Shown piece after piece: positions 18,909-53,343 of a stretch of 64,000 nucleotides of DNA (positions are counted from its first letter, which is position 1; every line of letters starts with the position of its first letter). The stretch is taken from contig MWBZ01000012.1 of NCBI GenBank assembly GCA_002069765.1, positions 8,436 to 72,435 on the forward strand, in the 5' to 3' direction. The notes under the pieces are model-generated. The model worked only from the letters and a program-made list of their open reading frames with translations, was not told the origin of the DNA and ran no database searches. This DNA comes from a bacterium ADurb.Bin243 (GTDB lineage: Bacteria > Muiribacteriota > UBA9980). A program made the translations under genes and the position numbers.

Positions 18909-18920
18909 GGCCGCCCTATC

Positions 18921-19836: not shown

Positions 19837-20396
19837 AAATTGCCCTCGATCAAATCTCTTATTTTAAAAGCGCTGAACGGTATGTAAAAATCGAAAGCAA
19901 TATCGGCTTTCTTTTCGTCCAGCTCGTTCATGGATATCATTTTGGGCGCCAGATGAAATTTAGCCCTGGCGCTTTCTATAAAATTTAAAAATGCTGAGGC
20001 GGCGACGGAACGGAACCCTGCTTTCACTTCGAGCGCTTCGATGAAATAGATTTTTTTTAACGAATACTCGGCGCTGAAGTGTTCGCAGCCGGTTTCCTTT
20101 GCCAGAGTGGCTATAAGCCCCTGAATGAGCTCGACATCTTTTGCCGCGAAACTGCTTTTAAAGTAATTTTTAAAATAAAGCGCGCCCGATTTGAAATCGT
20201 CCTTTTCCTTGCGCAGCGCGGCGCATGATTTAGCGGCCAGCGCGTTTTTCTCTTCGAGTTCGCTTATAAGCGGCATAAGCGCAGCCGCGCTGCCCTGCGG
20301 CGAAACGGTCAGCACGTGCAAGAATCCCGCGAATATAAGCGCCATAGAGCTTATTATAGCTATATTAAACAGCCTGGACCTTTCTTTTTCATTCAA
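19833..20396 (-). CDS. PilO/GspM-like pilus assembly protein (tentative)
   Basis: 187 aa; single N-terminal TM, coiled-coil, then a periplasmic domain; positioned between pilN-like and pilin genes. Confidence 0.35.
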   Translation of the reverse strand: MNEKERSRLFNIAIISSMALIFAGFLHVLTVSPQGSAAALMPLISELEEKNALAAKSCAALRKEKDDFKSGALYFKNYFKSSFAAKDVELIQGLIATLAKETGCEHFSAEYSLKKIYFIEALEVKAGFRSVAASAFLNFIESARAKFHLAPKMISMNELDEKKADIAFDFYIPFSAFKIRDLIEGNL

Positions 20397-22081: not shown

Positions 22082-22174
22082 TTATGCACCCGCTTTTTAA
22101 ATTAATTTCTTTATTTTGCCGGCCGCGTAAGCCGGCCGCAGATCATCTTTTAATATCGTTTTTATTCGCGCCGA

Positions 22175-24043
22175 TCAGTCTTCGAAAGTCATGCGGTTGA
22201 TTTCGTCGATAGTGCTTATACCTTCTATAACCCTCTGCCACGCGGACTGACGAAGCGTGGTCATGCCTTCGGCGACCGCCTGCTTTCTTATATCGAGCGG
22301 CGACGCTTTTAAAATAATCATATTTTTAATGCAATCCGAAAGCGGCATGGTTTCATAAATGCCCGTACGGCCTGAATAGCCGGTGTTATGGCAGAAACGG
22401 CAGCCTTCGCCCTTATAGAATTTATGGTCTTTATAGCGTTCGAAATCGCCCATCAGCTTGACCGTTTCCTCGTCGGGAATATATTCGCGCCGGCAGCTGG
22501 AGCATATTTTGCGTATAAGCCTCTGCGACATTATCAGATTGAACGACGCGGCGAACTGATAAGGGTCCACGCCCATATTGACGAGCCGCCCTATGGCGTC
22601 TATTACGTTATTGGCGTGGATCGTGGAAAGCACGAGGTGCCCCGTGAGGGCCGCATTGATAGCTATATTCGCCGTTTCGAAGTCGCGGATTTCGCCGACC
22701 ATTATTTCGTCGGGGTCCTGACGCACTATCGAACGAAGGCCCGAGGCGAAAGTGAGCCCCTTTTTTTCGTTGACGTTAATCTGCACGATATCGGGTATCT
22801 GATATTCCACCGGGTCTTCGATAGTTATGAACTTGTCTTCCGGGGTTTTGATGGCCTTTATGGCTGAATAAAGCGTCGTAGTCTTCCCGGAGCCGGTGGG
22901 GCCGGCTACGAGTATCATGCCGTAAGGCTTGAATATATTTTTTTTGAATCTTATAAGGTCGTGCTCGGGAAATCCGAGCCTTGCAAGGTCGAGCCCGAGA
23001 GCGTTCTGGTCGAGGACCCTTATTACGACCGTTTCGCCGAAAACCGATGGAAGCACCGACACGCGAAAATCTATGGCGCGGTCGTCTATATAGCGTTTGA
23101 AACGGCCGTCCTGAGGTATGCGTTTTTCGGAAATATCGAGGCTCGCCATATTTTTAAGGCGCGATATTATGAAATTTTTCGATTTTACGTCTATGGTTTT
23201 AACGACATAAAGCGCGCCGTCTATGCGGTATTTGACTTTAAGCCCTTCGGGGTAAACCTCGAAATGTATGTCGGAGGCTTTTTTGCGAATGGCCTTGAGT
23301 ATTATCGAATCGACCGTCTTTACTATGGACGAATCGGACATCGTCTTTAAAAATTCCGCGTCGGCAGCCGCGTCGTCGGCTTCTTCGCTGACCGCCCTGA
23401 GCGCGGGAGTATCGTCGGTATCGGCAAAGAGGGTATTTTCGCTCAACGAAGTTTCGATCATCAGATTGATTATGCGGGCGATATCGCTTTTTACAGAAAC
23501 GTAGGCCAGCGTTGGAATGCCGATAACGGATTCGATTTCTTCTATTCGCTCGACGTCGGACGGGTCGTCTATGACGATTACGAGCTTTTCGCCTTTCATG
23601 GCGTAAGGTATGAACTGGTAGCGCCTTATTATATTCACGTCGAATTTTGAAAAAAGCGCGTCGTCGATCTTCGTTTCGTTTAAATCGACGAATTCCGAAT
23701 TATGCTGGACGGCGATGGCCCTGTAAACGGCCGCCGGATATACGATTCCGCGCTCTATCAAAAGGTCTTTCAAGTTTCCGGGAACTGCGCCGAATTCGTT
23801 TATAATCCGCTCGAGCTCGGAAGCGGCGAGCCTGCCTTCGGATATCAGCACGTCTTCGAGCGAACGGGCCTTCAGCGAAGAAAAATAAAATTTATAAGCA
23901 GCCTGCTCGTTTTCAATAACTTTAAGCTTTATAAGCTCCTTAACGCCTTCGGAAAAATTCTTCGACGCCAGCGTCTCCAGAGCGGCTTTATCTATGCGGT
24001 TCCTGTTTTTAAGTTCGTATAAAATTTTTTCCCACACGGCCAT
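22175..24043 (-). CDS. Type II secretion / type IV pilus assembly ATPase (GspE/PilB family)
   Basis: Walker A GPTGSGKTT, Asp box, His box, tetracysteine CSSC...CRFC, N-terminal GSPII_E_N-like domain. The ORF extends to 24088, but the ATG at 24043 is preceded by AAGGAGAA. Confidence 0.9.
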   Translation of the reverse strand: MAVWEKILYELKNRNRIDKAALETLASKNFSEGVKELIKLKVIENEQAAYKFYFSSLKARSLEDVLISEGRLAASELERIINEFGAVPGNLKDLLIERGIVYPAAVYRAIAVQHNSEFVDLNETKIDDALFSKFDVNIIRRYQFIPYAMKGEKLVIVIDDPSDVERIEEIESVIGIPTLAYVSVKSDIARIINLMIETSLSENTLFADTDDTPALRAVSEEADDAAADAEFLKTMSDSSIVKTVDSIILKAIRKKASDIHFEVYPEGLKVKYRIDGALYVVKTIDVKSKNFIISRLKNMASLDISEKRIPQDGRFKRYIDDRAIDFRVSVLPSVFGETVVIRVLDQNALGLDLARLGFPEHDLIRFKKNIFKPYGMILVAGPTGSGKTTTLYSAIKAIKTPEDKFITIEDPVEYQIPDIVQINVNEKKGLTFASGLRSIVRQDPDEIMVGEIRDFETANIAINAALTGHLVLSTIHANNVIDAIGRLVNMGVDPYQFAASFNLIMSQRLIRKICSSCRREYIPDEETVKLMGDFERYKDHKFYKGEGCRFCHNTGYSGRTGIYETMPLSDCIKNMIILKASPLDIRKQAVAEGMTTLRQSAWQRVIEGISTIDEINRMTFED

Positions 24044-24104
24044 TTTATAATTCTCCTTTACCTTCCGGCCGGCGCGCCGGGCCCGCAAAACTTTCGCGGT
24101 TAAA

Positions 24105-25331
24105 TCAGCTTACTATGGTGGCCGCCGTTATCATGGGCAGCAGTATCGCTATAATAATCGTTCCGAAAACGGCCAGGACGAATATGAGTATCAGCGGCCC
24201 GAAAAGCGATTCGAACGCCGTAGTGAGAGAGTCCAGTTCTTCGTCCATAGTGTTGGAAATATTATTAAAAATCTCAGAAAGCGTGCCCGACTCTTCGCCC
24301 GTTTTAATTAATTTCGGTATTATATCCGAAGCGAAACCGCTTTTTTCGAAAGAAAAACTTATGGTATTGCCTTCGCGTATGAGCCTTACCGCCTCTTTGA
24401 TCTTAGCGTTAATCACGCCGTTGGTCACCACATTAGAACTGACTTCCAGTGCGTTTACTATATTAATGCCTGATTTTATGAGCAATCCGCTGGTCCTGTA
24501 AAAAATCGAATAAAGGCTTTTTTCCACGAACGACCTGATGAGCGGAATTTTCAGGGAATACTTATCGCTGAAGCATTTGCCTTCTTCGGTATTCAGCCAG
24601 TTATAAAGCATGAACGCGAAAGCGGCCGCGAGAAAGCCGAGCGGCAGATAAAACCCGCCGACGAAATCGCCTATGAAAAAAACGACCTGCGATATAGGCG
24701 GAAGCGAAGCCCCCATTTCACGGAACATCTTGGTATATGTAGGCACTACGTTTAAAAAGAGATACGATACGCCGATAGTGCTTAAAACAAGTATGACCGC
24801 GGGATAAGTCGCCGCCGCTATCAATTTTTTGTAAAGCGCCTGTTTTTTCTGGTAATACTCGCTTAAATTGGACAGCACGCCGCAAAGGTTGCCTGAAGTT
24901 TCGCCGCTGGCGACCGTTTTAACGTATAAATCTTCGAAGACGTCGGGGCGCCTGGCAAGCGCGAGTGAAAAAGAAATGCCGTGATCAACGGAATTTTTAA
25001 CGCCGCAGATAATTTCGGTAAAGTAATCCTGCGCGGAACGTTTTTCGGAAAGGACGGCGAGCGCCTCGTTCAGCGACATGCCTGATTTTATAAGCATGGC
25101 GAGCACTCTGGAAAATTCTATAAGGTATTTGGTGCGGTTGAATAAAAACCTTATTTTTCTTAAATTTTCAGCGCTGAAATACGCTCCGAAATCGAACGGC
25201 ATTTTTTCGATTTCGAGAGGAAACATTTCCTGCCGTTTAAGAAGCTCGCTTACGGCTTCGGCCGAGCGGGCGTTGATAACGAGCGATTCCGTCCTGCCCG
25301 TTTTGGTGGAGGCTTTTACTTTAAAATCCAT
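24105..25331 (-). CDS. Type II secretion system protein F / PilC platform protein
   Basis: 408 aa; two T2SSF repeats and three TM segments; adjacent to the GspE/PilB ATPase. Confidence 0.85.
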   Translation of the reverse strand: MDFKVKASTKTGRTESLVINARSAEAVSELLKRQEMFPLEIEKMPFDFGAYFSAENLRKIRFLFNRTKYLIEFSRVLAMLIKSGMSLNEALAVLSEKRSAQDYFTEIICGVKNSVDHGISFSLALARRPDVFEDLYVKTVASGETSGNLCGVLSNLSEYYQKKQALYKKLIAAATYPAVILVLSTIGVSYLFLNVVPTYTKMFREMGASLPPISQVVFFIGDFVGGFYLPLGFLAAAFAFMLYNWLNTEEGKCFSDKYSLKIPLIRSFVEKSLYSIFYRTSGLLIKSGINIVNALEVSSNVVTNGVINAKIKEAVRLIREGNTISFSFEKSGFASDIIPKLIKTGEESGTLSEIFNNISNTMDEELDSLTTAFESLFGPLILIFVLAVFGTIIIAILLPMITAATIVS

Positions 25332-32769: not shown

Positions 32770-33570
32770 TTACAGATAACATTTCATTTCTTTTCCGATT
32801 ACCCCCGCGTACAGCTCGATATAAGGCTTGATAGAACTGGAGTTGATCTTGCGGAAAAGCACTTCTTCTATCTGGAAAAACCCTACGGATTCATTCATTT
32901 CGACTGTAATCCTTATAGGCCTGTTTTCGCCTTTGCCGATTTTAACCGATTCGACCGCCGAAGAAGAGTATTTGTGTATATCTCCGACCTTCGCGTCGGG
33001 ATGGAGCATCATCGGTATCCTCGCGCGGCCTTTTTCCATGTCGCAGCCGTCGGCGATGAGTATGGACCCCGCCTCGAGCGAGTATATTTTCTGCGTAGCC
33101 ATATGGCCTACGATGCATTCGGTTATCATCGATTTGGCCACTACTTTTTTATAGTGGTCGTTTTCGTATATGACGCCTAAAATTCGGTCCAGCAGAGAAG
33201 ATGCAAGCAGCGCCCCCATCTGTTCGTGGTTTTCGCGTCCGACGCTCATGCCGATATCGTGTATGAACCCGGCGATCAGTACGACGATCATGCTGTCTTC
33301 GAAGCCGCAGCCGGCTTCTTTTTCAAGGTTGAGCTCGATGCCCGATTCCTTTAAAAGTTTGATCATTTTCAAGGCGTTTATGGCCACCTTGCGCATATGC
33401 ACCGGCCCATGGTCGTTATGGTCGAGCCTTTTAATGGAGACTATATTGGCGTAATCCTGCAGATGCTGTATTTCGTCGTCGGCGAGTATTATCTCGGCGG
33501 CCTTTAAAACCTTTCCGGATACCATGCTTAATATTTTAGCGTCCAGCGACACTTCTTTAGGCGATTTCAT
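32770..33570 (-). CDS. HD-domain metal-dependent phosphohydrolase
   Basis: H...HD motif (FIHDIGMSV) with downstream His/Asp ligands. Confidence 0.6.
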   Translation of the reverse strand: MKSPKEVSLDAKILSMVSGKVLKAAEIILADDEIQHLQDYANIVSIKRLDHNDHGPVHMRKVAINALKMIKLLKESGIELNLEKEAGCGFEDSMIVVLIAGFIHDIGMSVGRENHEQMGALLASSLLDRILGVIYENDHYKKVVAKSMITECIVGHMATQKIYSLEAGSILIADGCDMEKGRARIPMMLHPDAKVGDIHKYSSSAVESVKIGKGENRPIRITVEMNESVGFFQIEEVLFRKINSSSIKPYIELYAGVIGKEMKCYL

Positions 33571-33656: not shown

Positions 33657-34886
33657 TTAACGTATGGCGCTTGTGAGGTCGAATATAGGAAGAAACATAG
33701 CAATCGAAATAAAACCTATAAAAAGCCCCATAGTTATTATGAGGGCCGGTTCTATAAGCGAGATCACTCCGTCGATGGCTATTTCGACTTCGTACTCGAA
33801 AAAATCGGAAGCCTTTATTAAAAGCCTGGGCAGAGTGCCGGTTTTTTCGCCGGTTTGAATCATCTTGGTCACTATGGCCGGAAATTCAGGCTTGCCCTTC
33901 AGGATATCGTACAGCGTCAAACCTTGCGATACGCCGCCTTTGAGAGAAACCACTATCTTTTTAAGCACGGTGTTTTCGACTATGTTTTCGCAGACTTCGA
34001 GGCTTTTTAGTATCGGAACTCCGCTCGTCAGCAGCGTGGCGAGGGTCCTTATGAACCTGGCGATAGTGGCTTTCATAATCATGTCGCCAAAAACCGGCGT
34101 TTTTAAAGTAAATGCGTCGAAAATGCCCCGCGCCCTTTCGTTATTGTTTATAAGCCATCTGAAAAGAAAAACGAATGCTATAAATCCGGCTATTATGAAC
34201 AAATAATAGTTTTGCATAAATTCGCTGGTTTTCATAAGTATGACCGTCGGGGCGGGCAGCGCGGTCTTGGCTTTGGCGAACACTTTCGTAAATTTAGGAA
34301 AAACGTAGGCCACAAGGAAAAAAATTACGCTCGCCGCTATCAAGCTCAAAGTAACCGGATATATCAAGGCGGACTTGACCTTGGACCTTATTTTAGTGTC
34401 GCGTTCGGAAAATTTGGCGATGCGCTCGAGCACTTCGTCGAGGCCCGCGCCGGTTTCTCCGGCCTTGATCATATTGGCGGCGACTTCGTCGAAAATCTGC
34501 GGATGTCGGGATACGGCATCGTAAAACGTCTGGCCCGTGGCGATTCTCGTTTTCACGTCGTTTATAACGGATTTGAAATAAGGGTTCTGGGTCTGGTCTA
34601 TAAGCGACTCCAGGCTTTCTATAAGAGTTACGCCCGCGGAAATAAGGGTGGAAAGCTGTATGTAAAAATAGGTGACTTCCTTCTGCGTGACCCGGTTGAA
34701 AAAAAGGCCCGCCAGAGACGACGAAGCCCTCGCCTTTTTCTGCACTTCTTTTATTTCGATAACGTAGTAACCTTTTTCTATGAGGGAATCCGCCAGCGCG
34801 CCGGAGCTGGCCGCTTCGGCGTAAGCCGACTGCACCTTGTCGCCGCGGTCGGAAAACTTATATTCAAATAAAGGCATATGCTTCAC
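33657..34886 (-). CDS. Type II secretion system F-family protein (second GspF/PilC paralog)
   Basis: 409 aa; duplicated T2SSF domain architecture with three TM segments; no cognate ATPase adjacent. Confidence 0.75.
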   Translation of the reverse strand: MKHMPLFEYKFSDRGDKVQSAYAEAASSGALADSLIEKGYYVIEIKEVQKKARASSSLAGLFFNRVTQKEVTYFYIQLSTLISAGVTLIESLESLIDQTQNPYFKSVINDVKTRIATGQTFYDAVSRHPQIFDEVAANMIKAGETGAGLDEVLERIAKFSERDTKIRSKVKSALIYPVTLSLIAASVIFFLVAYVFPKFTKVFAKAKTALPAPTVILMKTSEFMQNYYLFIIAGFIAFVFLFRWLINNNERARGIFDAFTLKTPVFGDMIMKATIARFIRTLATLLTSGVPILKSLEVCENIVENTVLKKIVVSLKGGVSQGLTLYDILKGKPEFPAIVTKMIQTGEKTGTLPRLLIKASDFFEYEVEIAIDGVISLIEPALIITMGLFIGFISIAMFLPIFDLTSAIR

Positions 34887-34925
34887 CCGTCCTGCAAAAT
34901 AAAATAACCCGAACGCCGGCCGGCG

Positions 34926-36587
34926 CTAAATTTTAATTATAAACGCTTTTATGGCCTGCTCCTTGCCTTTAACGAAAAAAGACGGAAGCAGCTCGCACTT
35001 GAATCTGTCCTTTACGGCGTTATAAACGCTTTCGTTAATTACGATTTCGTTATATCCGGCTTTCGCCTGAAGCCTGGCGGCCAGATTTACCGTGTCGCCG
35101 ATAGCGGTGTATTCCATACGGTCGAGCGATCCTACGTTGCCCACGATGGCTTCGCCCGTGTTGATTCCTATGCTGAAGCTAACTTCTACGCCGTATTCGC
35201 TTTTATATTCTTCCGTCATCCGCTTTACCGTTTCGATAATTTCTACGGCCGTCATGACCGCGCGAACCGCGTCGTCGTCGTGCCTTACGGGAGCGCCGAA
35301 AAAAGCCATCACGGCGTCGCCTATGAATTTATCCAGAGTGCCGTCGTGGCGGAAAATAATCTGCGTTATCTCGGAAAAAGTTTTATTGAGCATGGAAAAG
35401 ACGTCTTCGACCTTGAGCTGCTCGGACATTTTCGTGAAGTTTTTGATGTCCGCGAACAAAACGCTTATGTCGCGTTTTTCGCCGTCCAGCTTGAGTTCTC
35501 CGCTGGTCTGGGTGAGCTGGTCTATAAGGTTCGGAGATATATAGCGCTCCATATTGTTTCTGATATTGCGTTCGCGCTTTATCGCCATGATCAGCTTGGT
35601 GTTTTCTATAGCTACCGATACCGCGCTGGCGAAGTTTTTCAGAAATTCCGCGTCGGCCTCGTCGAAAGGCTGGGAGGCGTCTTTTTCAAGGTAAAACGCA
35701 CCCTGAAGGCCCTGCTGAGAAACCAGCGGAATGCACAGGATCGATTTTGCGGAAAGCGCCATAACGCTTTCGGCCGAAGCGAACCTTTCGTCCATGAGGC
35801 TGTTTTTGACCAGCACCGGCCCCGGGTTGTCTTTCATATACGCCAGTATCGATTTTGAAACGAAATTTTCGTCGAGCTTCAGATCGTTGAGGCTCATTTT
35901 TCTTGCCACATAAGGCACGAAACGGCCGGCTTTTTTTTCGTAAAGCAGCACGAGGCCCCTGTCGACTTTTTTGATTTCGTGAACCAGGTCGAGCGCTATA
36001 TTCAGAAGCTGTTTCAGGTTCAAAATTTCGGATATCGATTTGGTGAGCTCGAATAAGATCCTCATTTCGGAATTAACGCGGGAGCTGTCTTTAGCGAACG
36101 AATTCACCATATCGCCGAGCCGGGCCTGAAACGCCGGAAATTCTCTGGAAAAGTTCGCAGGGGTGAGCTGAGAGTTGAATTCTTTCAAAAGCGCGTCCAC
36201 CTTCTGCTCAAAATCGTTGACCACCGCGCTTTGCAGCGAAGCTTTTTCGCCGGCGTATCCCGCGATGTCGCTTTTGCTCATTATGATCGACTGCAGAAGC
36301 TCTTCGTCGTTGAATTCTATGAGCACGTCGCCGATTCTGGACACGTCGTAATTGGATATAGGAGATTCCTTTATCTTTTTTCCGTTGAGAAAGGTTCCGT
36401 TGGTGGATTGATTATCGATCAGATGCCACACACGGTCCCGGCAAGCCAATTTCGCGTGGATCCTGGAAGCTATGGTGGACTTTATCATTATCGAGCATTC
36501 GGGGCTTCTGCCGATAGTGTACTCTTTATTTTCGTCGAGTTCGACCGTGCTGAACTCCCTGTTGCTGTTCACTATAGTAATATTCAA
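34926..36587 (-). CDS. FHA-GAF-class III adenylate/guanylate cyclase
   Basis: N-terminal FHA domain (YTIGRSPECSIMI...SRIHAKL...STNGTFLNG), central GAF domain, C-terminal cyclase catalytic domain (VLFADIKNFT...FIGDAVMAFFGAP). Confidence 0.85.
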   Translation of the reverse strand: MNITIVNSNREFSTVELDENKEYTIGRSPECSIMIKSTIASRIHAKLACRDRVWHLIDNQSTNGTFLNGKKIKESPISNYDVSRIGDVLIEFNDEELLQSIIMSKSDIAGYAGEKASLQSAVVNDFEQKVDALLKEFNSQLTPANFSREFPAFQARLGDMVNSFAKDSSRVNSEMRILFELTKSISEILNLKQLLNIALDLVHEIKKVDRGLVLLYEKKAGRFVPYVARKMSLNDLKLDENFVSKSILAYMKDNPGPVLVKNSLMDERFASAESVMALSAKSILCIPLVSQQGLQGAFYLEKDASQPFDEADAEFLKNFASAVSVAIENTKLIMAIKRERNIRNNMERYISPNLIDQLTQTSGELKLDGEKRDISVLFADIKNFTKMSEQLKVEDVFSMLNKTFSEITQIIFRHDGTLDKFIGDAVMAFFGAPVRHDDDAVRAVMTAVEIIETVKRMTEEYKSEYGVEVSFSIGINTGEAIVGNVGSLDRMEYTAIGDTVNLAARLQAKAGYNEIVINESVYNAVKDRFKCELLPSFFVKGKEQAIKAFIIKI

Positions 36588-36600: not shown

Positions 36601-39600
36601 TTATTTTATATTTTCCCATCTGCGTTCGTCGGTCAGATCAAGTATTATGGCTGGAGTTTTAAGCCCCTTCGCCTTGCTGTTTTCGATAAGCCCGCTCTGC
36701 ACTTCTATAGAATATTTGCCCGACGGCATCGACAAAAAGCGGGGATCGAATTTCAAAACGCCTAGATTAAGGCGGGTTTCCTGAATCGGAAAGCTCTGTT
36801 CTGAAATATTTGCGCCAGTATTGAAATAGCCTATTACGTTATAAGTAGGCGTTCCTGTGGTGGATTTAGCTTTGTCCCAGTAAAGCGTCTGGTTCTGCTC
36901 ATCGAAAATGAGATTTTCGGAAGGCGAAACTTTTTTGAATAACGCGTCGTTTCTCTGAAGATAAAACTGGACCGGTTCGGAAAACTGTCCTTCTACCGGA
37001 GGGACTTTGCCTGCAAGTATGGGCTTTACCCTTACCGTATGAGGGCCGAGCGAGACGTTTTCGGAAATTCCGTAACTCGCGCTGGCGGTGTAAGTCAAAT
37101 TATTATTATGGGTCATTATCACGCCGTCGAGTTCCACCACGTAAGAAGCGATAGGAAGCTTATCCACTAAAACAGGCTGCCATCTTAAAATGCTGTTGTA
37201 ACTATCGAGCTGTATCTGGGTTATCCTGGGCAGCTCCCCCGATTCCTGGTTTACCTGAGTGTTGAAAACGCACACTTCCGAATAAGGCCCGTTTATTTCA
37301 GGGCTGGTATCGGCTATAACGGCCCTGACCGATATTTCGTGAGTGCCGGGGCTCAGGGCGTCCACCGAATATTCCGATCGCACGCTGAGATTCGGCGCCT
37401 CACGCCCGTCCACCTTAACGCGGTAAAAGCAAATCTGCTCGTTAATGACGACCGGAAGCCACCTTATGAGCTTGCGCGAATGAACGTAAGCCAGCCCCAT
37501 TACCTGAGGCACGCTCGTGTCTATGAAAAGGTCGAAAGGGTCTGAAAACGGCCCGTTCAATTCGGGATTATAGGTCTGCAGAACCGCCTGCACCAGCACT
37601 TCATGAGTGCCGCTTCTCAGGGCGGCGGCGTTATATTCGTTTTTGGTGTAAACCATTCCGCTGAGGTATCCGTCAACTTTCACCCTGTAAACGCACGGCT
37701 GCTCGTTAGCGTAAACGGTCTGCCACGTGAGGATCTTTGAAGCGGGATTATAAGCGATGCCGCCGACTTTGCCGATCTCCGGAAGGTCTCCGACAGGAAG
37801 CTTTATCGCCGCAGATTTCATACTGTAGTTGAATCCGTCGAAAGAGCAGACTTCGAGAACGCAGTTAAAAGAATCCATCGGCAGCCTGTTTTTGACCATC
37901 TCGAGAGAGACCGAGTCGGTGGAGACCACTTCTATCAGTTTTGAATAAACGTTGCCGGAAGGCCTGTCGTAAGAGGCTAAAATATGGAAGATAAAATTAG
38001 ACACCGGCTCGTTTAAAGACCATTTAAGTTCTTTGGCGGTCGGCTCATAGCCGAAGTTTTCAGGATAAGGAATCGATTCGTACGGCCTGGTCCCGTCTTC
38101 AACAAAAAACGAATATTCGACGCTCCACGGGCCTTCGTCGGTAACGGTTATCTGGATATCGGATTCGTCGAGCGTGACAGCCTGCACTCTAAGTTTGTGC
38201 GGCCCTTTGACAAGCCCGGGCGGAACTCCGTAGCACGCCAGGCGCGTAATAAAAAGATTGCTTATATCGTCGTCGAACATCACGCGGTAGCCGTAAACGG
38301 TTTCCGCGTCCGCCAGGGGCTGCCAGTTAAAATAACCCGACCGCGAGTCGATGCCCGTAACCTGGGGCAGGTCGGAAGAAGCTTTTATCGTGAATTTATA
38401 GATATCTGAAAGGGGACCGAAATCAAGCGGGTGCAGGCTTCCTGCGATTTTAGCCTGAACCTGGACGGTGCGCGAGCCGCTCATGAACATGGCGACCGAA
38501 AATTCGGGCCTGGAAAGATATTGCGGCATAAGATTGCCGTCGATTCTGACCGCGTATTCGACCTGTTTGCCTTCCACTGCGACCGGAGACCATTTAATGA
38601 TTTTATTGACCGAATAGTAAAAAAGCCCCGTTACTTTCGCTATATTAGCGGGGTTATGTATATTGAGAGTGTATTCGGCTGTGCTCACCTCGGAATTGGC
38701 GTAACCGGTTTTAATGGCTATGGCTTTTACGGTAGTGGTGGCCGAAATTTCTATAGTGCCCGAGTACTTGAGGCTGTCCGCTGAAGGCGCGCTATGATCG
38801 AGGGTATAATATATTTCGGCGCCGGGAGTTTTAGAGGATAAAAGGACCTCGAGCGTGTTTTCGTAAATGCCGGATTCGTAATTAAACTCGGGTGCGGAAG
38901 CGGCCGTGGAAGTTTTTATTATCTCATACGCGGCGGAAACCGGCGCGGAGGAAAGCATTCCGGCTTTAACCGCATAAGCTTTTATAGTGAGCGTTTTAGC
39001 TACGACGACCGGCTTGGAATATAAAATAGAATTCAAGTTCGGCTCGCTGCCGTCGAGCGTGTAATAGATGGACGCTCCTGCCGTGGCCGTAGTTATATCG
39101 ACTTCACGGGTAGAATTGTAAACTCCGGGCGCCACGCTGAAAACCGGCGCGGACGCTTTAAGCGGAACGTCTACGGCTTCGTAAGCGCCGCCGGTCACGG
39201 ACGAATTTAAATAACCCTGCTTTACGGCTACGGCCTTTAAAGTCAGCGACGAATTCAATATAACCGGGGAGCTGTCGGAATATAACCGTGAAACTCCCGG
39301 AACCGGATCGCTCGAATCAGTGGTGTAATAAATTAGAGCCTGCCCGGTAGAAGTGGAAATTTTAACCTCGTAACCGGTTTGATAAGTTCCGGGCGGAGGA
39401 TCGAAAACTGGAGCCGAGACGCGTTTGGGCGGCTCGATAATATTCAAAGTATAATTTTGCGAAACCACGTCGGATTCTATCATTTCGCTTTTAACGGCTA
39501 TAGCGGAGATTTTCTGGGTTTTATCAATAAGTATCGGCGCCTGATATAGCGTGCTGGACGAATTAGGGACCTTCCCGTCGGCTGTGTAATAAATTTTAGC

Positions 39601-40614
39601 GCCGCTCGTAGCCGTGACGATTGCGACCTCGAAGGTTTTGTCGTACGTGCCGGAGGCCGCTGAAAAAACCGGATTTGCTACTTTATCCAGGGACTTTATA
39701 GAGTCTATTACGGCTTTAATGCTTGCGGGCGCGGTGACGGAATTTATGACGGTCTTGTTTACGGAAACGCTTTCGCTCAGTCCTTTTGCCTTTATCTCTG
39801 TCAGCGGGCCCGTCGACTGCAGGGCGTAAACGAAAGCTTCGAGCGCGCCGCTGGCTTCGATAATATTTCTGGGCGGAGGCAGTATCTGGTTCTTCTCATC
39901 CGCCGAAACCGAATCGCTGGTTAAAACATGCATCAGCGAAACGCATGCCCTGGCAAGCTCTAAAACATTGGCCAGGCCTCCCGCGTTATTTACGATCTGA
40001 GTCTGGGAAATATTTTTGATTTCATCGTAATTTTTTACTATGGAAGTTTCGCCCTGATATGCGCTTAAATTTATAAAAGGCGGCGGGTCTATATTTTTTT
40101 CGGCGCAAAACAGCGCAAGAGAGGTTGAAAAATCGTTTATTTCGATATTTTTTATTTTTACGCTCTTCAATCCGGCCGGAATTTCGGAAAATTTAGGTAT
40201 CCTTCCGATAAGATTGCGGTATAAAAAACGGTTCGTGGCGTTTTCTTTCACGGTGATCATAATAAAAGAATCGGAGCGGGCGGGCGAGAACCGGAGCGAA
40301 AAAGTCGAGCCCGAAACCGACGCCGCGACAAGTTCGTTGTTGAGATAACGGTCGGTCGCCACAATGGAATACCTGCCGCCGGTAAAATCGGATGCCCTGA
40401 AAACGTTTTCCGGAGCGCCGTTCGACGCGGACTGAGGAATGCTGCCTTCGAAAGTGAAAATTTGATCGTCGTAGGGCGGCGCGGGCGAGCTGCCTCCTCC
40501 TCCGCCGCCTCCGCAGCTTATTATAAAAACCAGCGCTGAAACGAGTATAATCGAAGCGAATAACCTTAGTTTATTGAATGGCACTTTTTTCTCCAATGCG
40601 CTATTTTTCGGCAA
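36601..40614 (-). CDS. Large modular surface lipoprotein (1337 aa) with poly-Gly linker and two families of tandem Ig/Fn3-like repeats
   Basis: Lipobox IISC followed by GGGGGGGSS. Four about 82-aa chitobiase/hexosaminidase C-terminal-like repeats (motif AxIYYTxDGSxP) precede five or six about 95-aa repeats (motif YRVKVDG...GTHEV-V-AV). Confidence 0.7.
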   Translation of the reverse strand: MPKNSALEKKVPFNKLRLFASIILVSALVFIISCGGGGGGGSSPAPPYDDQIFTFEGSIPQSASNGAPENVFRASDFTGGRYSIVATDRYLNNELVAASVSGSTFSLRFSPARSDSFIMITVKENATNRFLYRNLIGRIPKFSEIPAGLKSVKIKNIEINDFSTSLALFCAEKNIDPPPFINLSAYQGETSIVKNYDEIKNISQTQIVNNAGGLANVLELARACVSLMHVLTSDSVSADEKNQILPPPRNIIEASGALEAFVYALQSTGPLTEIKAKGLSESVSVNKTVINSVTAPASIKAVIDSIKSLDKVANPVFSAASGTYDKTFEVAIVTATSGAKIYYTADGKVPNSSSTLYQAPILIDKTQKISAIAVKSEMIESDVVSQNYTLNIIEPPKRVSAPVFDPPPGTYQTGYEVKISTSTGQALIYYTTDSSDPVPGVSRLYSDSSPVILNSSLTLKAVAVKQGYLNSSVTGGAYEAVDVPLKASAPVFSVAPGVYNSTREVDITTATAGASIYYTLDGSEPNLNSILYSKPVVVAKTLTIKAYAVKAGMLSSAPVSAAYEIIKTSTAASAPEFNYESGIYENTLEVLLSSKTPGAEIYYTLDHSAPSADSLKYSGTIEISATTTVKAIAIKTGYANSEVSTAEYTLNIHNPANIAKVTGLFYYSVNKIIKWSPVAVEGKQVEYAVRIDGNLMPQYLSRPEFSVAMFMSGSRTVQVQAKIAGSLHPLDFGPLSDIYKFTIKASSDLPQVTGIDSRSGYFNWQPLADAETVYGYRVMFDDDISNLFITRLACYGVPPGLVKGPHKLRVQAVTLDESDIQITVTDEGPWSVEYSFFVEDGTRPYESIPYPENFGYEPTAKELKWSLNEPVSNFIFHILASYDRPSGNVYSKLIEVVSTDSVSLEMVKNRLPMDSFNCVLEVCSFDGFNYSMKSAAIKLPVGDLPEIGKVGGIAYNPASKILTWQTVYANEQPCVYRVKVDGYLSGMVYTKNEYNAAALRSGTHEVLVQAVLQTYNPELNGPFSDPFDLFIDTSVPQVMGLAYVHSRKLIRWLPVVINEQICFYRVKVDGREAPNLSVRSEYSVDALSPGTHEISVRAVIADTSPEINGPYSEVCVFNTQVNQESGELPRITQIQLDSYNSILRWQPVLVDKLPIASYVVELDGVIMTHNNNLTYTASASYGISENVSLGPHTVRVKPILAGKVPPVEGQFSEPVQFYLQRNDALFKKVSPSENLIFDEQNQTLYWDKAKSTTGTPTYNVIGYFNTGANISEQSFPIQETRLNLGVLKFDPRFLSMPSGKYSIEVQSGLIENSKAKGLKTPAIILDLTDERRWENIK
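36970..38634 (-). repeat. Second family of tandem about 95-aa domain repeats inside the lipoprotein gene (coordinates approximate)
   Basis: Recurrent W-P/TV......YRVKVDG......S-Y......GTHEV-V-AV units. Confidence 0.5.
38665..39678 (-). repeat. Four tandem CHB_HEX_C-like domain repeats inside the lipoprotein gene (coordinates approximate)
   Basis: Repeated about 246-nt coding units, each encoding SAPVF...G-Y.....V-I-T-T-GA-IYYT-DGS-P......Y..P......T-KA-AVK. Confidence 0.6.
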
Positions 40615-42754
40615 GTATAACTATAGATCCCGGGCGCACTTTAATTTTTTTCGAGTTTACCTGCGGCATTTCGCCGTCTTCGAATATATCTTTTCCTGAC
40701 TGCTCGAAAGTGTCCACCTTCAGACGCCATGACATCTTCGGCCTGGCGGGCGGAATTTCGTAATCGAGCTGCTGCGAAAAAGCGTTAATCGCTATGTAAA
40801 AACGCCTGTCGTAGTTTTTAATCGAAGTGATTTTTGAAAGGCCGTTTATAGTGAATGCCAGCGAATGCGAAACATAAGACCAATCGGGCTGGTTGAGCTT
40901 TACGCCGTGCCAGTCTATAAATTTCGAAGAAAGCTCCGGATTATGCGAATCGCTTTTATTGAGGAAAGTTTCAAGGCAGAAAATAGGGTTTTCTTTTCTA
41001 AACGATATTATTTTTTTGAAATAATTAAAGATTTCGGGATATTTGTCTATGAAATCCCAATCGAGCCACGAAAGCTTGTTATCCTGACAATAGCAGTTGT
41101 TGTTTCCGCGCTGGGTCCTGTAAAATTCGTCGCCGGCGAGTATCATGGGAGTGCCCTGAGAAATCATCAAAATAGTGGCGAAATTTTTAACCTGCCTCAT
41201 CCTCTTGCGGTTAATTACGGCGTCGCCAGTTTCGCCTTCGGCGCCGTAGTTGAAGCTGCGGTTATCGTCGGTCCCGTCGGCGTTGTTTTCGCCGTTTTCG
41301 AAGTTATTCTTTTTGTTGTATGTAACCAGGTCGCGCATAGTGAAACCGTCGTGCGAAGTGATAAAGTTTATGCTGTGGTAAGGCGCCCTGCCGTTGTCGT
41401 AGAGGTCGGGGCTGCCGCAAATTCTCGTAGCCAGCGCTGAAACGTAGCCTTCGTCGCCTTTTATGAAGCTGCGGACATCGTCGCGGAATTTTCCGTTCCA
41501 TTCGGCCCACCCGGCGGGGAACTCGCCCACTTTATAGCAGCCGGCGGCGTCCCAGCCTTCGGCTATCAGCTTGGTTCCCGATAGTATGGGGTCTTCGGAT
41601 ATGTCGCGCAAAAGGCTGTTCACTCCGATCCATGCGCCGCTGGAATCGCGGCCGAGAATGGCCGCCAGATCGAAACGGAAGCCGTCGACATGCATTTCTG
41701 AAACGAAATACCGGAGGCTGTCGAGGATCATCTGCTTTACGGCCGAATGATTGCAATTGAGCGTATTGCCGCAGCCCGAATAGTTTTTATAAAAACGGTT
41801 GTTTTCCAGATGGTAATAAAGCCTGTTATCTATGCCGCGGAACGCCACGCTGGGGCCGACTTCGTTGCCTTCTCCGGTATGGTTGTAAACCACGTCCAGT
41901 ATGACTTCGATATTCGCGCGGTGCAGATGCCTGACCATGTCGCGGAACTCGTTGACTACCCCTCCTGGCGCGCCGGAAGAAGAATAAAGCGAGTTAAGGG
42001 CGAAAAAGGAAAGCGAATTATAACCCCAGTAATTTTTAAGCCTCTCGCCGGTTTTAGGGTTTACGCGTATTATTTCGTCTTCGTTGAATTCATGGACGGG
42101 AAGAAACTCTATAGCGGTAACCCCGAGTTCGGTAAAATAAGGTATTTTTTCAATGATGCCGGCAAAAGTGCCGGGTGACGAAACTTTAGACGACGGATGC
42201 CTGGTGGTCCCGCGGACGTGCGTTTCATAAATTATAGTTTTATTAAGAGGGATGCGCGGGTGATGATCGTCCTGCCAGTCGTACTGAGAATCGTCGATAA
42301 TGGCGCATTTCATAGCGGTTGCGCAATTATCGACGCCGGAAGGCGCAAGGTCGGCGTCGGACGGGGCGTTTCGGTCGTAGCCGTAGGCTTCGTCGAAGTG
42401 CCAGCGGTTGTCGGCGCTTACCAGAGCCCGAGCATAAGGGTCTATCAGAAGCTTATTGCGGTTAAAACGGTCGCCCGTCAGCGCCGGCGAATAATCGCCA
42501 GAAAATCTGTATGCGTAACAAAGCTCGGAAAAATCTGGACCGGTGACATGCGCATGCCAGATATCTCCGGTCCTGTTTTTTTTAGGGTTGAATTCTATGG
42601 AAATGAAAGGCGTCTGGATATCGCTCAGTTTGTAAAGCTCGAGTATTACTCCGGAAGTATTTTTAGATAAAATGGCGAAATTCATTCCGCCTTTTTTATC
42701 CAGGGAGCTCCCTAAAGGGTATGGCTTTCCTTTTAATAATTTATAATCCTGCAT
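40601..42754 (-). CDS. glgX: Glycogen debranching enzyme GlgX / isoamylase (GH13)
   Basis: 717 aa; GH13 catalytic regions (VILDVVYNHT, GFRFDLA, EGWD, FITSHDGFT) and an N-terminal CBM48-like domain. Confidence 0.85.
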   Translation of the reverse strand: MQDYKLLKGKPYPLGSSLDKKGGMNFAILSKNTSGVILELYKLSDIQTPFISIEFNPKKNRTGDIWHAHVTGPDFSELCYAYRFSGDYSPALTGDRFNRNKLLIDPYARALVSADNRWHFDEAYGYDRNAPSDADLAPSGVDNCATAMKCAIIDDSQYDWQDDHHPRIPLNKTIIYETHVRGTTRHPSSKVSSPGTFAGIIEKIPYFTELGVTAIEFLPVHEFNEDEIIRVNPKTGERLKNYWGYNSLSFFALNSLYSSSGAPGGVVNEFRDMVRHLHRANIEVILDVVYNHTGEGNEVGPSVAFRGIDNRLYYHLENNRFYKNYSGCGNTLNCNHSAVKQMILDSLRYFVSEMHVDGFRFDLAAILGRDSSGAWIGVNSLLRDISEDPILSGTKLIAEGWDAAGCYKVGEFPAGWAEWNGKFRDDVRSFIKGDEGYVSALATRICGSPDLYDNGRAPYHSINFITSHDGFTMRDLVTYNKKNNFENGENNADGTDDNRSFNYGAEGETGDAVINRKRMRQVKNFATILMISQGTPMILAGDEFYRTQRGNNNCYCQDNKLSWLDWDFIDKYPEIFNYFKKIISFRKENPIFCLETFLNKSDSHNPELSSKFIDWHGVKLNQPDWSYVSHSLAFTINGLSKITSIKNYDRRFYIAINAFSQQLDYEIPPARPKMSWRLKVDTFEQSGKDIFEDGEMPQVNSKKIKVRPGSIVILAEK

Positions 42755-53335: not shown

Positions 53336-53343
53336 GCGGTTCC

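What the first reader, a model, noticed from the sequence alone, without database searches (positions are those of the whole stretch)
33657..36587. Orphan second GspF/PilC platform gene paired with an FHA-GAF-adenylate cyclase
A second T2SSF-family inner-membrane platform protein (409 aa) sits about 9 kb from the main locus, without an ATPase or pilins. It lies immediately downstream of a three-domain FHA-GAF-class III nucleotide cyclase, separated by 39 nt on the same strand. FHA domains read phospho-threonine signals, and cyclic nucleotides control pilus and secretion systems in several bacteria. This adjacency suggests a regulatory module, or a platform subunit gated by cAMP/cGMP signalling. 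The genes after them are the giant surface lipoprotein and glgX.
Basis: inference. Interest (0 to 1): 0.55.

Follow-up and report, generated by a model that had tools for sequence, protein, structure and literature searches.

The report
Adenylate cyclase locked to secretion-platform gene
In an uncultured Wallbacteria genome, a signalling enzyme that most likely makes cyclic AMP is encoded directly ahead of a spare membrane "platform" gene of a secretion/pilus machine, and this gene pair stays together across distant relatives, which points to a built-in second-messenger control of the machine that has not been tested.

Summary
On the minus strand, a 553-aa FHA-GAF-class III cyclase (36587..34926) lies directly upstream of a full-length T2SSF/PilC-family platform protein, here called F1 (34877..33657, 406 aa from the conserved ATG). 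No ATPase, pilin or secretin gene lies beside them. The cyclase keeps every catalytic residue and has the Lys/Thr pair typical of adenylate cyclases. The FHA phosphothreonine-binding residues are also intact.

The pair is immediately adjacent in all eight distinct loci examined from the F1 clade (58-100% F1 identity), although the genes on both sides change. In four distant lineages, cyclase-F1 heads a secretion/pilus-machine operon. In three of them that operon carries pseudopilin and PilM-PilN genes, with the secretin also seen in two.

In the window's genus the homologous operon lies about 52 kb away and is headed by a third paralog, F3 (55% identical to F1). F1 is therefore a supernumerary platform kept with the cyclase. 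It is under strong purifying selection (dN/dS about 0.05-0.09).

Ser/Thr kinases follow the secretin in two operon versions, and a kinase abuts a cyclase homolog that lacks F1. This suggests a kinase, FHA, cAMP route.

The mechanism is inferred, not shown. I rate it a new variant of known cAMP control of pili and secretion. Interest is moderate.

The parts
34926..36587 (-). FHA-GAF-class III adenylate cyclase, 553 aa, soluble. Public record OQA80425.1, named 'Adenylate cyclase 2'.
   Evidence: ORF. Pfam FHA, GAF and Guanylate_cyc. Best solved relatives are Cya2, CyaB and CyaC. AlphaFold model has mean pLDDT 79.5 and shows FHA, a long helical linker, GAF, a signalling helix and the cyclase domain. 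Public name.
36309..36587 (-). FHA domain (residues 1-93). The conserved phosphothreonine-binding set G26, R27, S41, H44, N63 is present.
   Evidence: Pfam residues 23-82. These columns are invariant in the 15-sequence alignment A1. Modelled as a beta-sandwich, residues 2-93.
35601..36020 (-). GAF domain (residues 190-329). Ligand unknown.
   Evidence: Pfam GAF_2, GAF_3 and GAF. Modelled fold for residues 191-310, followed by a long helix at 310-347.
34938..35477 (-). Class III cyclase catalytic domain (residues 371-550). Carries D380, K420, D424, R490, T494, N501 and R505.
   Evidence: Pfam hit. Residue-by-residue alignments to Cya2, CyaB and CyaC. These residues are invariant in A1.
34878..34925 (-). 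Spacer between cyclase and F1, 48 nt. It holds a Shine-Dalgarno-like GGACGGGTGA and a window-specific GC palindrome. There is no convincing terminator.
   Evidence: Sequence. Alignment with relatives, whose spacers are 20-34 nt. The fold is no more stable than shuffles, z = +1.55.
33657..34877 (-). F1, a T2SSF/GspF/PilC-family inner-membrane platform protein. 406 aa from the ATG (409 aa from the GTG at 34886). Public record OQA80424.1.
   Evidence: Pfam T2SSF, two repeats. TIGR02120 GspF scores 368 bits, below its 424 cut-off. Aligns to M. xanthus PilC over residues 44-405. Three TM-like segments. dN/dS 0.05-0.09 against congeners.
36601..40614 (-). Giant predicted lipoprotein, 1337 aa, with Fn3_assoc/CHB_HEX_C_1 repeats. 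It lies directly upstream of the cyclase with a 13-nt gap. A homolog precedes the cyclase in 4 of the 6 lineages.
   Evidence: ORF with a signal sequence and Cys lipobox. Homologs upstream of the cyclase in L001, L101, L003, L006 and L007, at 33-50% identity.
40601..42754 (-). glgX-type debranching enzyme, the first gene of the apparent glgX-lipoprotein-cyclase-F1 run. It overlaps the lipoprotein ORF by 14 nt.
   Evidence: ORF. Orthologs carry CBM_48 and Alpha-amylase domains. It lies directly upstream of the cyclase in L005.
32770..33570 (-). HD-domain protein, 266 aa, downstream of F1. This position is specific to the window's genus and replaces the machine genes found after F1 in other lineages.
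   Evidence: Weak Pfam HD hit at 23.3 bits. No solved relative. Conserved in this position in L001, L101 and L102. A promoter-like site lies in the 86-nt gap.
14964..25331 (-). Context: the in-window pilus-type locus. It holds F2 (T2SSF, 408 aa), a MshEN-PilB-like ATPase (637 aa), a PilM-like gene, two small genes, three pilin-like genes plus a 154-aa ORF, and an embedded hybrid histidine kinase.
   Evidence: F2 is 27% identical to F1.

Best explanation
The cyclase and F1 form a conserved, co-transcribed two-gene module belonging to the T2SS-like (type IV filament) machinery of Candidatus Wallbacteria.

What each protein is:
- The cyclase is a soluble, catalytically competent class IIIb-type adenylate cyclase. 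Two input domains should set its activity. The FHA domain would dock on a phosphothreonine protein. The GAF domain would bind an unknown small ligand and is coupled to the catalytic domain through a long signalling helix.
- F1 is an intact PilC/GspF-type platform protein.

Evolutionary picture: in most lineages, cyclase-F1 heads the machine operon. That operon contains pseudopilin, a PilM-PilN fusion equivalent to GspL, a GspM-like gene, and a secretin and/or an ATPase. In the window's genus the same operon is headed by another paralog (F3) about 52 kb away. F1 has stayed with the cyclase instead.

Most likely working model (inferred):
1. A machine-associated Ser/Thr kinase creates the phosphothreonine mark. 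Candidates are the TPR-Pkinase encoded after the secretin, or a Pkinase next to the cyclase in one lineage.
2. The FHA domain reads that mark, which recruits or activates the cyclase at the machine.
3. The cAMP produced adjusts assembly, activity or expression of the filament/secretion system.
4. F1 acts either as the platform in the cyclase-controlled state or as the cyclase's membrane partner.

Shown here: gene structure, domain content, residue integrity, synteny, paralogy and purifying selection. Inferred: co-transcription, cAMP as product, kinase to FHA coupling, and any effect on the machine.
For: Anatomy:
- ORFs and domains.
- A tight spacer without a credible terminator, and 20-34 nt spacers in relatives.

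Catalytic competence:
- D380, D424, K420, T494, N501 and R505 are invariant.
- Lys aligns with the Glu, and Thr with the Gly, of the guanylate cyclase Cya2.
- FHA residues G26, R27, S41, H44 and N63 are invariant.
- The model shows FHA, helical linker, GAF, signalling helix and cyclase.

Synteny: the cyclase is immediately upstream of F1 in the window, L001/L002, L101/L102, L003/L004/L093, L005/L094, L095, L006 and L007. The downstream context comes in three different forms (HD/NMO; pseudopilin...secretin; PilM...ATPase). The upstream context comes in several forms.

Co-inheritance: the cyclase and F1 trees agree on the main lineage groupings.

Baseline: only 1 of 80 FHA-GAF-cyclase loci in other phyla has a T2SSF gene within 10 kb.

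F1 is not decaying: dN/dS is 0.05-0.09 against congeners. This matches F2 (0.08-0.12), glgX (0.07) and NMO (0.08). F1 also has 114 invariant positions in its clade and three TM segments.

Three paralogs in one genome: the JGI contig Ga0377239_000438 carries F1, F2 and F3. The genes downstream of F3 are homologous gene for gene to those downstream of F1 in L003, L005 and L095.

Kinase links:
- A TPR-Pkinase follows the secretin in L096 and L098. The two kinases are 48% identical.
- A Pkinase lies directly upstream of the 53%-identical cyclase in L088/L089.

Precedent:
- cAMP from the class III cyclase CyaB is tied to type IV pili in P. aeruginosa (bioRxiv 10.1101/116954; PMC10187167).
- cya1/Sycrp1 and Ser/Thr kinases are listed among Synechocystis pilus-motility genes (PMC7076178).
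Against: - No experiment exists, and the organism is uncultured.
- No cAMP receptor (CRP or cNMP-binding protein) and no Ser/Thr kinase are encoded in the 64-kb window.
- No Thr is conserved specifically in the F1 clade that could serve as an FHA docking site.
- No cyclase-T2SSF fusion was seen among the top homologs.
- The linkage is confined to one clade of one candidate phylum. The nearest cyclase homolog outside it (53% identity) has no T2SSF nearby. The sister platform clade F3 works without an adjacent cyclase.
- The eight loci descend from one ancestral arrangement, so they are not independent origins.
- dS is saturated (above 1.3), so the dN/dS values are approximate.
- The lipoprotein and glgX are also often upstream, so the cyclase could serve that part of the operon instead.
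Confidence: 0.55

Rival explanations
1. Alternative-platform model. F1 is a swappable platform subunit that works with an ATPase and filament genes encoded elsewhere, such as the in-window PilB-like ATPase or the F3 operon. The cyclase is only co-expressed with it. Its cAMP acts globally, for example on transcription, rather than on the machine itself.
For: - The window genus has three platform paralogs but only one ATPase in view.
- The F3 operon shows no ATPase gene from F3 through to the kinase.
- F1 is intact and under purifying selection.
- In L006 and L007 the F1 operon contains its own MshEN-T2SSE ATPase. This shows that F1-clade proteins are normal working platforms.
Against: - The model does not explain why F1, rather than any other gene, remains next to the cyclase after every rearrangement.
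- The L006/L007 ATPase is only 37% identical to the window's ATPase. No orthologous partner is therefore visible here.
Confidence: 0.2
2. Operon inertia. The adjacency is historical and has no functional coupling. The cyclase belongs functionally with the upstream genes (giant surface lipoprotein, glgX, CheX, receiver protein), for example as cAMP control of carbohydrate or surface physiology. F1 simply lies at the boundary of an old operon.
For: - A homolog of the lipoprotein precedes the cyclase in 4 of the 6 lineages, with short gaps.
- The REC-CheX-glgX run is shared by the window genus and L005.
- FHA-GAF-cyclases are widespread in other phyla with essentially no T2SSF linkage.
Against: - The lipoprotein is absent in L005 and was not detected in the short ORF-poor stretch upstream of the L095 cyclase. 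glgX is absent upstream of the cyclase in L003, L006 and L007. F1 is never absent.
- Gene order around the pair has turned over repeatedly at saturated synonymous divergence, which normally breaks neutral adjacencies.
- The 20-48 nt same-strand spacing is kept throughout.
Confidence: 0.2
3. Decaying remnant. After F3 took over the machine operon, F1 is a redundant duplicate on its way to loss, and the pairing is a transient leftover.
For: - F1 has no machine genes beside it in the window genus.
- The homologous machine operon there has its own platform, F3.
Against: - F1 is full length, with both T2SSF repeats, the N-domain and three TM segments.
- Its dN/dS of 0.05-0.09 equals that of housekeeping neighbours across three species-level lineages of the genus.
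- At least 15 sequence clusters at 79-100% identity retain it.
Confidence: 0.05

Closest known systems
Pseudomonas aeruginosa CyaB / FimV-FimL / Pil-Chp surface-sensing circuit (cAMP-Vfr)
   Same: - A class III adenylate cyclase is functionally tied to a type IV filament machine, and cAMP modulates the pilus system (bioRxiv 10.1101/116954; PMC10187167).
- The CyaB catalytic domain is among the best solved relatives of this cyclase (3r5g, E = 1e-33).
   Different: - From my own knowledge, CyaB is membrane-anchored through an N-terminal MASE2 region. It has no FHA or GAF domain and is not encoded next to pilC.
- Coupling there runs through a chemotaxis-like system and scaffold proteins. No such genes flank this pair, apart from a CheX and a receiver gene further upstream.
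- The gene-level fusion into the machine operon is new.
Synechocystis sp. PCC 6803 Cya1 (slr1991) / Sycrp1 control of type IV pilus motility
   Same: - An adenylate cyclase and a cAMP receptor protein are required for pilus-dependent motility. Ser/Thr kinases (SpkA, SpkB) are also on the list of motility genes (PMC7076178).
- From my own knowledge, not verified here, Cya1 carries an N-terminal FHA domain. That would make it the nearest architectural analogue.
   Different: - Cya1 has no GAF domain (my own knowledge).
- I know of no report that cya1 is adjacent to a platform gene.
- No CRP-type receptor was found near the Wallbacteria pair.
Threonine-phosphorylation control of secretion machines through FHA proteins (T6SS PpkA/PppA-Fha1; T3SS YscD-type FHA)
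   Same: - An FHA domain is associated with a trans-envelope secretion machine. The FHA region here also hits Pfam Yop-YscD_cpl and, weakly, the NCBIfam T6SS TagH model.
- Ser/Thr kinases are encoded in the same operons in relatives.
   Different: - In those systems the FHA protein is a structural or scaffold component. Here FHA is the input domain of a second-messenger synthase.
- No kinase lies in this window.
GAF-regulated class III cyclases (cyanobacterial CyaB1/CyaB2 type) and the bacteriophytochrome-cyclase chimera 6fht
   Same: A GAF-type sensor precedes a class III catalytic domain through a helical transducer. The best solved match, 6fht, covers the helix and catalytic domain (query residues 341-529). 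The model shows the long helix at residues 310-347.
   Different: - A single GAF of unknown ligand, rather than tandem cAMP-binding GAFs.
- An additional FHA domain and an 80-residue helical linker.
Canonical T2SS (Gsp) and T4aP (Pil) operons with a single GspF/PilC next to GspE/PilB
   Same: - F1 is a typical family member: two T2SSF repeats and three TM segments, and it aligns along PilC 3jc8.
- Outgroup homologs at 39% identity show the canonical ATPase-platform order.
   Different: - Here the gene upstream of the platform is a cyclase, not the ATPase.
- The genome's genus carries three platform paralogs, one of them detached from any machine genes.

Membership tests
T2SSF / GspF / PilC platform proteins (Pfam PF00482) | Two T2SSF repeat domains covering the cytoplasmic regions. 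| tested here: met
   Pfam T2SSF, E = 3e-57, two stretches. The T2SSF_N domain is recorded for the identical public protein and its orthologs.
T2SSF / GspF / PilC platform proteins (Pfam PF00482) | Polytopic inner-membrane topology with three TM helices, and full-length similarity to a solved member. | tested here: met
   Hydropathy windows around residues 170-200, 223-248 and 367-409. Residues 44-405 align to M. xanthus PilC 3jc8 at E = 2e-76.
GspF equivalog (NCBIfam TIGR02120) versus PilC equivalogs (NF052606/NF052607) | Score above the curated equivalog cut-off. | tested here: not met
   GspF scores 368 bits against a 424 cut-off. The PilC models score 317-319 bits against a 700 cut-off. 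F1 can be placed in the superfamily only. A T2SS versus T4P assignment rests on operon context in relatives.
Complete T2SS-like machine at this locus | ATPase, pseudopilins, GspL/M-like (PilM-PilN) genes and a secretin adjacent to the platform gene. | tested here: not met
   None of these flank F1 in the window, and tblastn finds no homologs in the window. They do follow F1 in L003, L005 and L095 (pseudopilin, PilM-PilN, and a secretin in L005 and L095). In L006 and L007 a PilM-like gene and an ATPase follow F1. In the window genus they follow F3.
Class III nucleotidyl cyclases (Pfam PF00211) | Catalytic-domain homology. | tested here: met
   Guanylate_cyc at E = 1.9e-28, residues 371-550. PDB relatives Cya2, CyaB and CyaC at E = 1e-29 to 1e-35.
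Class III nucleotidyl cyclases (Pfam PF00211) | The metal-binding Asp pair, and the transition-state Asn and Arg. | tested here: met
   D380, D424, N501 and R505 (plus R490) are present. They are invariant in the 15-sequence alignment spanning several phyla and align to the corresponding motifs of CyaB and CyaC.
Adenylate-specific (class IIIb-type) cyclases | Substrate-specifying Lys, plus Thr (or Asp), rather than the Glu plus Gly/Cys/Ser of guanylate cyclases. | tested here: met
   K420 aligns with the Glu of the guanylate cyclase Cya2 (2w01) and with the Lys of its adenylate-converted chimera (6fht). T494 aligns with the Thr of CyaC and the Gly of Cya2. Both are invariant. Assigning these roles to these positions rests on established class III cyclase structure-function knowledge.
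Adenylate-specific (class IIIb-type) cyclases | Measured cAMP synthesis. | not testable with these tools
   This needs an enzyme assay or complementation of an E. coli cya mutant.
FHA domains (Pfam PF00498) | Domain homology, and the conserved phosphothreonine-binding residues (Gly-Arg, Ser-x-x-His, Asn-Gly). | tested here: met
   FHA at E = 2.9e-15. G26, R27, S41, H44, N63 and G64 are invariant. Modelled as a beta-sandwich with pLDDT of 80-90. Actual phosphopeptide binding is not testable here.
GAF domains (Pfam PF01590/PF13185) | Domain homology. The ligand defines the functional subclass. | tested here: inconclusive
   The fold and Pfam hits are clear. No ligand can be assigned from sequence. 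I saw no clean cNMP-type NKFDE motif on inspecting the sequence, which is not a formal test.
Ser/Thr kinase - FHA signalling pair (PpkA-Fha1 type logic) | A Hanks-type kinase encoded with the FHA protein. | tested here: not met
   No Pkinase domain was found among about 45 window ORFs scanned of at least 150 aa. The feature is met only in relatives. L088/L089 have a kinase directly upstream of a cyclase homolog. L096 and L098 have a TPR-Pkinase after the secretin.
cAMP-CRP type regulatory circuit | A cNMP-binding receptor encoded in the genome or locus. | tested here: not met
   No cNMP-binding or CRP domain was found in the window ORFs scanned, or in the Pfam lists of the related loci. The rest of the genome could not be searched.

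The most novel reading that the evidence does not exclude
In the window's genus, F1 has been released from machine duty because F3 heads the homologous secretin operon. F1 then survives as a dedicated membrane partner of the soluble FHA-GAF cyclase. On this reading a secretion/pilus platform protein has been repurposed as the sensor or anchor subunit of a cAMP-generating signalling complex, perhaps one that reports the state of the ATPase or filament machines. This would be a new role for the GspF/PilC family, and a direct physical link between a type IV filament component and second-messenger synthesis.
Probability: 0.15. Interest if true: 0.7.

Novelty: new variant of a known kind. Interest (0 to 1): 0.42.

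Why it matters
Second-messenger control of pili and secretion is well known. In the studied models, however, the cyclase is linked to the machine indirectly, through chemotaxis-like systems or scaffold proteins. How machine activity is converted into cAMP remains debated.

Here the cyclase gene is hard-wired to the platform gene of a T2SS-like operon. It stays with a platform paralog even when the rest of the machine is encoded elsewhere. If the two proteins interact, this would be a minimal system for studying machine-to-cAMP coupling, tractable by protein biochemistry. It would also add a Ser/Thr-kinase/FHA input to type II secretion or pilus regulation.

The finding also gives a functional foothold in Candidatus Wallbacteria, a candidate phylum for which I found no functional study of these genes.

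The practical limits are that the organism is uncultured and that the linkage is restricted to one clade.

Tried and rejected
1. Exact-sequence look-up of the 409-aa GTG-start protein found nothing. The public protein starts at the ATG and is 406 aa.

It returned only other phyla and no Wallbacteria. I used it as a baseline instead.

It confirmed only 3 loci, 1 of them new. The Wallbacteria survey therefore rests on 8 distinct loci. Matching contig lengths in the two hit lists add indirect support (P0002/P0121, P0005/P0126, P0013/P0122, P0015/P0125, P0020/P0131, P0021/P0135, P0023/P0136, P0026/P0138). That is inference only.

4. I looked for a Thr or Ser conserved specifically in the F1 clade as an FHA docking site. 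There is none. Only Y73, C299 and F363 are clade-specific.

5. The hairpin in the cyclase-F1 spacer looked like a possible terminator or attenuator. It is window-specific and no more stable than shuffles, so I rejected it.

6. The promoter and terminator scans were not enriched over shuffles.

7. No Rfam family, and so no riboswitch, is present in the window.

8. I considered the HD-domain protein downstream of F1 as a possible cAMP phosphodiesterase. It has only a borderline HD hit, no NCBIfam family and no solved relative. There is no support for this idea.

9. I asked whether the in-window ATPase is F1's lost partner. The ATPase in the F1 operons of L006 and L007 is only 37% identical to it, so it is a paralog.

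10. In Gemmatimonadota, a MshEN-T2SSE-REC ATPase lies about 4 kb from FHA-GAF-cyclase homologs. It is on the opposite strand and separated by anthranilate synthase and another gene. I judged this lineage-specific synteny and weak evidence.

11. Literature searches for an FHA/GAF cyclase linked to T2SS or T4P genes found nothing relevant.

12. I could not determine whether F3 arose by duplication within the genus or is an old paralog. F3 is roughly equidistant from all F1 sequences (50-57% identity).

Full report
**What is in the window**

On the minus strand the genes run in this order:
- glgX (42754..40601)
- a 1337-aa predicted lipoprotein (40614..36601)
- a 553-aa FHA-GAF-class III cyclase (36587..34926)
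- a T2SSF-family platform protein, F1 (34886 or 34877..33657)
- an HD-domain protein (33570..32770)
- an NMO-family gene, a 204-aa protein of unknown function, and an ankyrin-repeat protein

The gaps are -14, 13, 39/48 and 86 nt.

About 9 kb further on the same strand lies a pilus-type locus:
- a second T2SSF gene, F2 (25331..24105)
- a MshEN-PilB-like ATPase
- a PilM-like gene and two small genes
- three pilin-like genes plus a 154-aa ORF
- an embedded hybrid histidine kinase

F1 and F2 are only 27% identical. F1 is the more canonical of the two: it scores 368 bits on the GspF model TIGR02120, against 265 for F2.

Both genes are already in public records of 'bacterium ADurb.Bin243' (Candidatus Wallbacteria). 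They are OQA80424.1, 'Type II secretion system protein F', and OQA80425.1, 'Adenylate cyclase 2'. The public start of F1 is the ATG at 34877. It is preceded by a Shine-Dalgarno-like motif that is conserved in relatives.

**The cyclase is intact**

- Its catalytic domain aligns at E = 1e-29 to 1e-35 with the solved class III enzymes Cya2, CyaB and CyaC.
- I aligned 15 homologs spanning Wallbacteria, a Blastocatellia (Acidobacteriota) sequence, a Myxococcota sequence and several unnamed metagenome sequences. The metal aspartates D380 and D424, the substrate-specifying K420 and T494, and the transition-state N501 and R505 are all invariant.
- K420 aligns with the Glu, and T494 with the Gly, of the guanylate cyclase Cya2. 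ATP is therefore the predicted substrate.
- The FHA signature residues (G26, R27, S41, H44, N63, G64) are invariant as well.
- An AlphaFold model (mean pLDDT 79.5) gives an FHA sandwich (residues 2-93), two long helices (105-187), a GAF fold (191-310), a long helix (310-347) and the cyclase domain.
- I saw no hydrophobic, TM-like stretch on reading the cyclase sequence, so it is presumably soluble. This was inspection only, not a formal prediction.

**Synteny of the pair**

I used homologs of F1 and of the cyclase to recover the encoding contigs. The cyclase lies immediately upstream of the F1 ortholog, on the same strand with a 20-34 nt spacer, in every F1-clade locus examined.

| Loci | F1 identity to window | Gene order |
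|---|---|---|
| L001/L002 and L101/L102 | 82% | Same neighbourhood as the window |
| L003/L004/L093 | 72% | lipoprotein, cyclase, F1, pseudopilin, 232 aa, PilM-PilN... |
| L005/L094 | 63% | glgX, cyclase, F1, pseudopilin, 235 aa, PilM-PilN fusion, 218 aa, 161 aa, secretin |
| L095 | about 63%; groups with P0017/P0018 | cyclase, F1, pseudopilin, 232 aa, PilM-PilN, 218 aa, 172 aa, secretin |
| L006, L007 | 58-59% | lipoprotein, cyclase, F1, PilM-like 581 aa, 217 aa, 172 aa, MshEN-T2SSE ATPase |

Further points:
- The downstream context therefore takes three different forms, and the upstream context also varies. The pair itself does not vary.
- Neighbour-joining trees of F1 and of the cyclase agree on the main lineage groupings.
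- Among 80 FHA-GAF-cyclase loci from other phyla, only one has a T2SSF gene within 10 kb. The architecture as such is not linked to platforms.

**Limits of the linkage**

- A cyclase at 53% identity (L088/L089) lies directly downstream of a Pkinase-FGE-sulfatase protein. It has no T2SSF gene within 10 kb.
- A platform protein at 54% identity (L090) has no cyclase upstream.
- Homologs at 39% identity show the ordinary ATPase-platform order.

**F1 is 'orphan' only in this genus, and there is a third paralog**

I searched with the PilM-PilN fusion of L005. This led to the JGI contig Ga0377239_000438 (124.5 kb). That contig also carries an 82%-identical F1 with the window's exact neighbourhood, together with the F2 locus.

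About 52 kb from F1, the contig holds a third T2SSF gene, F3 (410 aa). F3 heads this operon: two pseudopilins, 403-, 191- and 240-aa proteins, a PilM-PilN fusion, 219- and 189-aa proteins, a secretin and a TPR-Ser/Thr kinase.

- F3 is 55% identical to F1. It belongs to a sister clade that also includes L090.
- The genes behind F3 match those behind cyclase-F1 in L003, L005 and L095. Pseudopilin, the 240-aa protein and PilM-PilN are most similar to those of L003 (62%, 55% and 53%). The remaining genes, which the L003 contig does not reach, match L005, L095 and L098, with the secretin at 65-67%.
- In the window's genus, therefore, the machine operon has its own platform, and F1 has remained with the cyclase.
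- By position, the F3 operon would lie beyond the left end of this window. tblastn finds none of its genes in the window.

**F1 is not decaying**

- dN/dS against congeners is 0.05-0.09. This is the same as for F2, glgX, NMO and the cyclase. dS is saturated, so the values are approximate.
- F1 keeps both T2SSF repeats and three TM segments. It aligns along PilC 3jc8.

**How it probably works**

*Shown here:*
- The two genes form a conserved, tightly spaced, same-strand pair.
- Both proteins are intact.
- The pair belongs historically to a T2SS-like operon.

*Inferred:*
- The genes are co-transcribed. The spacer has no credible terminator.
- The product is cAMP.
- The FHA domain reads a phosphothreonine made by a machine-associated Ser/Thr kinase. 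This rests on guilt by association in two independent contexts. A TPR-Pkinase follows the secretin in L096 and L098, and the two kinases are 48% identical. A kinase also abuts the cyclase homolog in L088/L089.
- The GAF domain adds a small-molecule input.
- The downstream target of cAMP is unknown. No CRP or cNMP-binding protein and no kinase are encoded in the window.
- I found no F1-specific conserved Thr and no fusion proteins. These would have pointed to direct binding.

**Comparison with known systems**

- In P. aeruginosa, the class III cyclase CyaB is activated through FimV/FimL and Pil-Chp, and cAMP depends on functional pili (bioRxiv 10.1101/116954; PMC10187167).
- In Synechocystis, cya1, the cAMP receptor Sycrp1 and Ser/Thr kinases are all motility genes (PMC7076178). 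That Cya1 has an FHA domain is my recollection and was not checked here.
- FHA/kinase control is classical for type VI secretion (my own knowledge).

The new features here are these. The cyclase sits as the first gene of a T2SS-like operon. It is linked specifically to the platform gene, and that link persists when the platform is detached from the machine. Literature searches found no description of this arrangement, and no functional work on these genes in Wallbacteria.

**Verdict**

- The regulatory-module interpretation is supported by synteny and residue integrity. It remains mechanistically untested.
- 'Orphan second GspF' should be rephrased as 'supernumerary platform paralog retained with an operon-derived adenylate cyclase'.
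- I rate it a new variant of a known kind, of moderate interest.

Noticed in passing
window 8685-14791 (-), also 59441-60886 (+) and 52097-54546 (-): Four tandem paralogous B12-binding radical-SAM genes (541, 530, 514 and 513 aa). A fifth lies elsewhere, along with two adjacent UPF0004/radical-SAM (MiaB-like) genes. This is an unusual local concentration of radical-SAM enzymes.
   Followed up: no
window 44741-48082 (+): A UvrD/PcrA-type helicase (1113 aa) interrupted by an intein. Pfam Intein_splicing hits within residues 359-605, between the helicase N and C domains. The same architecture is recorded in L001 and L101.
   Followed up: no
window 15885-18908 (-): A 1007-aa hybrid histidine kinase (GAF-PAS-HisKA-HATPase-REC-REC-Hpt) sits inside the pilin gene cluster of the main pilus locus, between pilin-like genes.
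   Followed up: no
window 22175-24088 (-): The only secretion/pilus ATPase in the window carries an N-terminal MshEN domain, the c-di-GMP-binding type. This system may therefore answer to a different second messenger than the cyclase-F1 pair.
   Followed up: no
window 34912-34927 (-): A roughly 15-nt GC palindrome (GCGCCGGCCGGCG) is inserted in the cyclase-F1 spacer. It occurs only in this genome and is absent from L001, L101, L003, L005, L006 and L095. It is no more stable than shuffled sequence.
   Followed up: yes
L096 15368-19171 and L098 7812-11873: A large TPR-Ser/Thr protein kinase (1267 and 1353 aa, 48% identical) is encoded just after the secretin of the Wallbacteria T2SS-like operon in two different lineages.
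   Followed up: partly
L088 6923-18243 (also L089): A 53%-identical FHA-GAF-cyclase is flanked upstream by a Pkinase-FGE-sulfatase protein (997 aa). Downstream lie a Sel1 protein and, convergently, a 1797-aa TPR-Guanylate_cyc protein. This forms a kinase/cyclase signalling cluster without any platform gene.
   Followed up: partly
L096 1-4313 (-), L090 1950-9797 (-), L006 16115-21236 (-): Giant (over 2100 aa) NHL-repeat proteins flank these operons repeatedly. They lie divergently upstream of F3 in L096 and L090, where they also carry an FGE-sulfatase domain. One lies after the ATPase in L006.
   Followed up: no
L008, L009, L010, L012, L013, L028, L031, L036, L061 (about 4-6 kb before the cyclase match): In nine Gemmatimonadota genomes, an FHA-GAF-cyclase homolog (about 30% identical) lies about 4 kb from a T2SSE-family ATPase on the opposite strand. 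In L009, the one locus examined in detail, that ATPase is a MshEN-T2SSE-receiver fusion, separated from the cyclase by anthranilate synthase and an 837-aa protein.
   Followed up: partly
homolog list of the cyclase (P0228, P0229, P0234, P0235): Nitrospirota relatives replace the FHA domain with a PilZ domain (PilZ-GAF-cyclase). This would put a c-di-GMP receptor domain in front of the same cyclase core.
   Followed up: no
window 48166-50460 (+): A RelA/SpoT-family (p)ppGpp synthetase/hydrolase (764 aa) lies in the same window. It is another nucleotide-messenger enzyme, with no obvious connection to the pair.
   Followed up: no
window 30411-31064 (-): A 217-aa protein made almost entirely of ankyrin repeats, uncommon in bacteria. 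It lies four genes downstream of F1. A 217-aa ORF occupies the same position in L001 and L102, although no Pfam hit is on record for it there.
   Followed up: no
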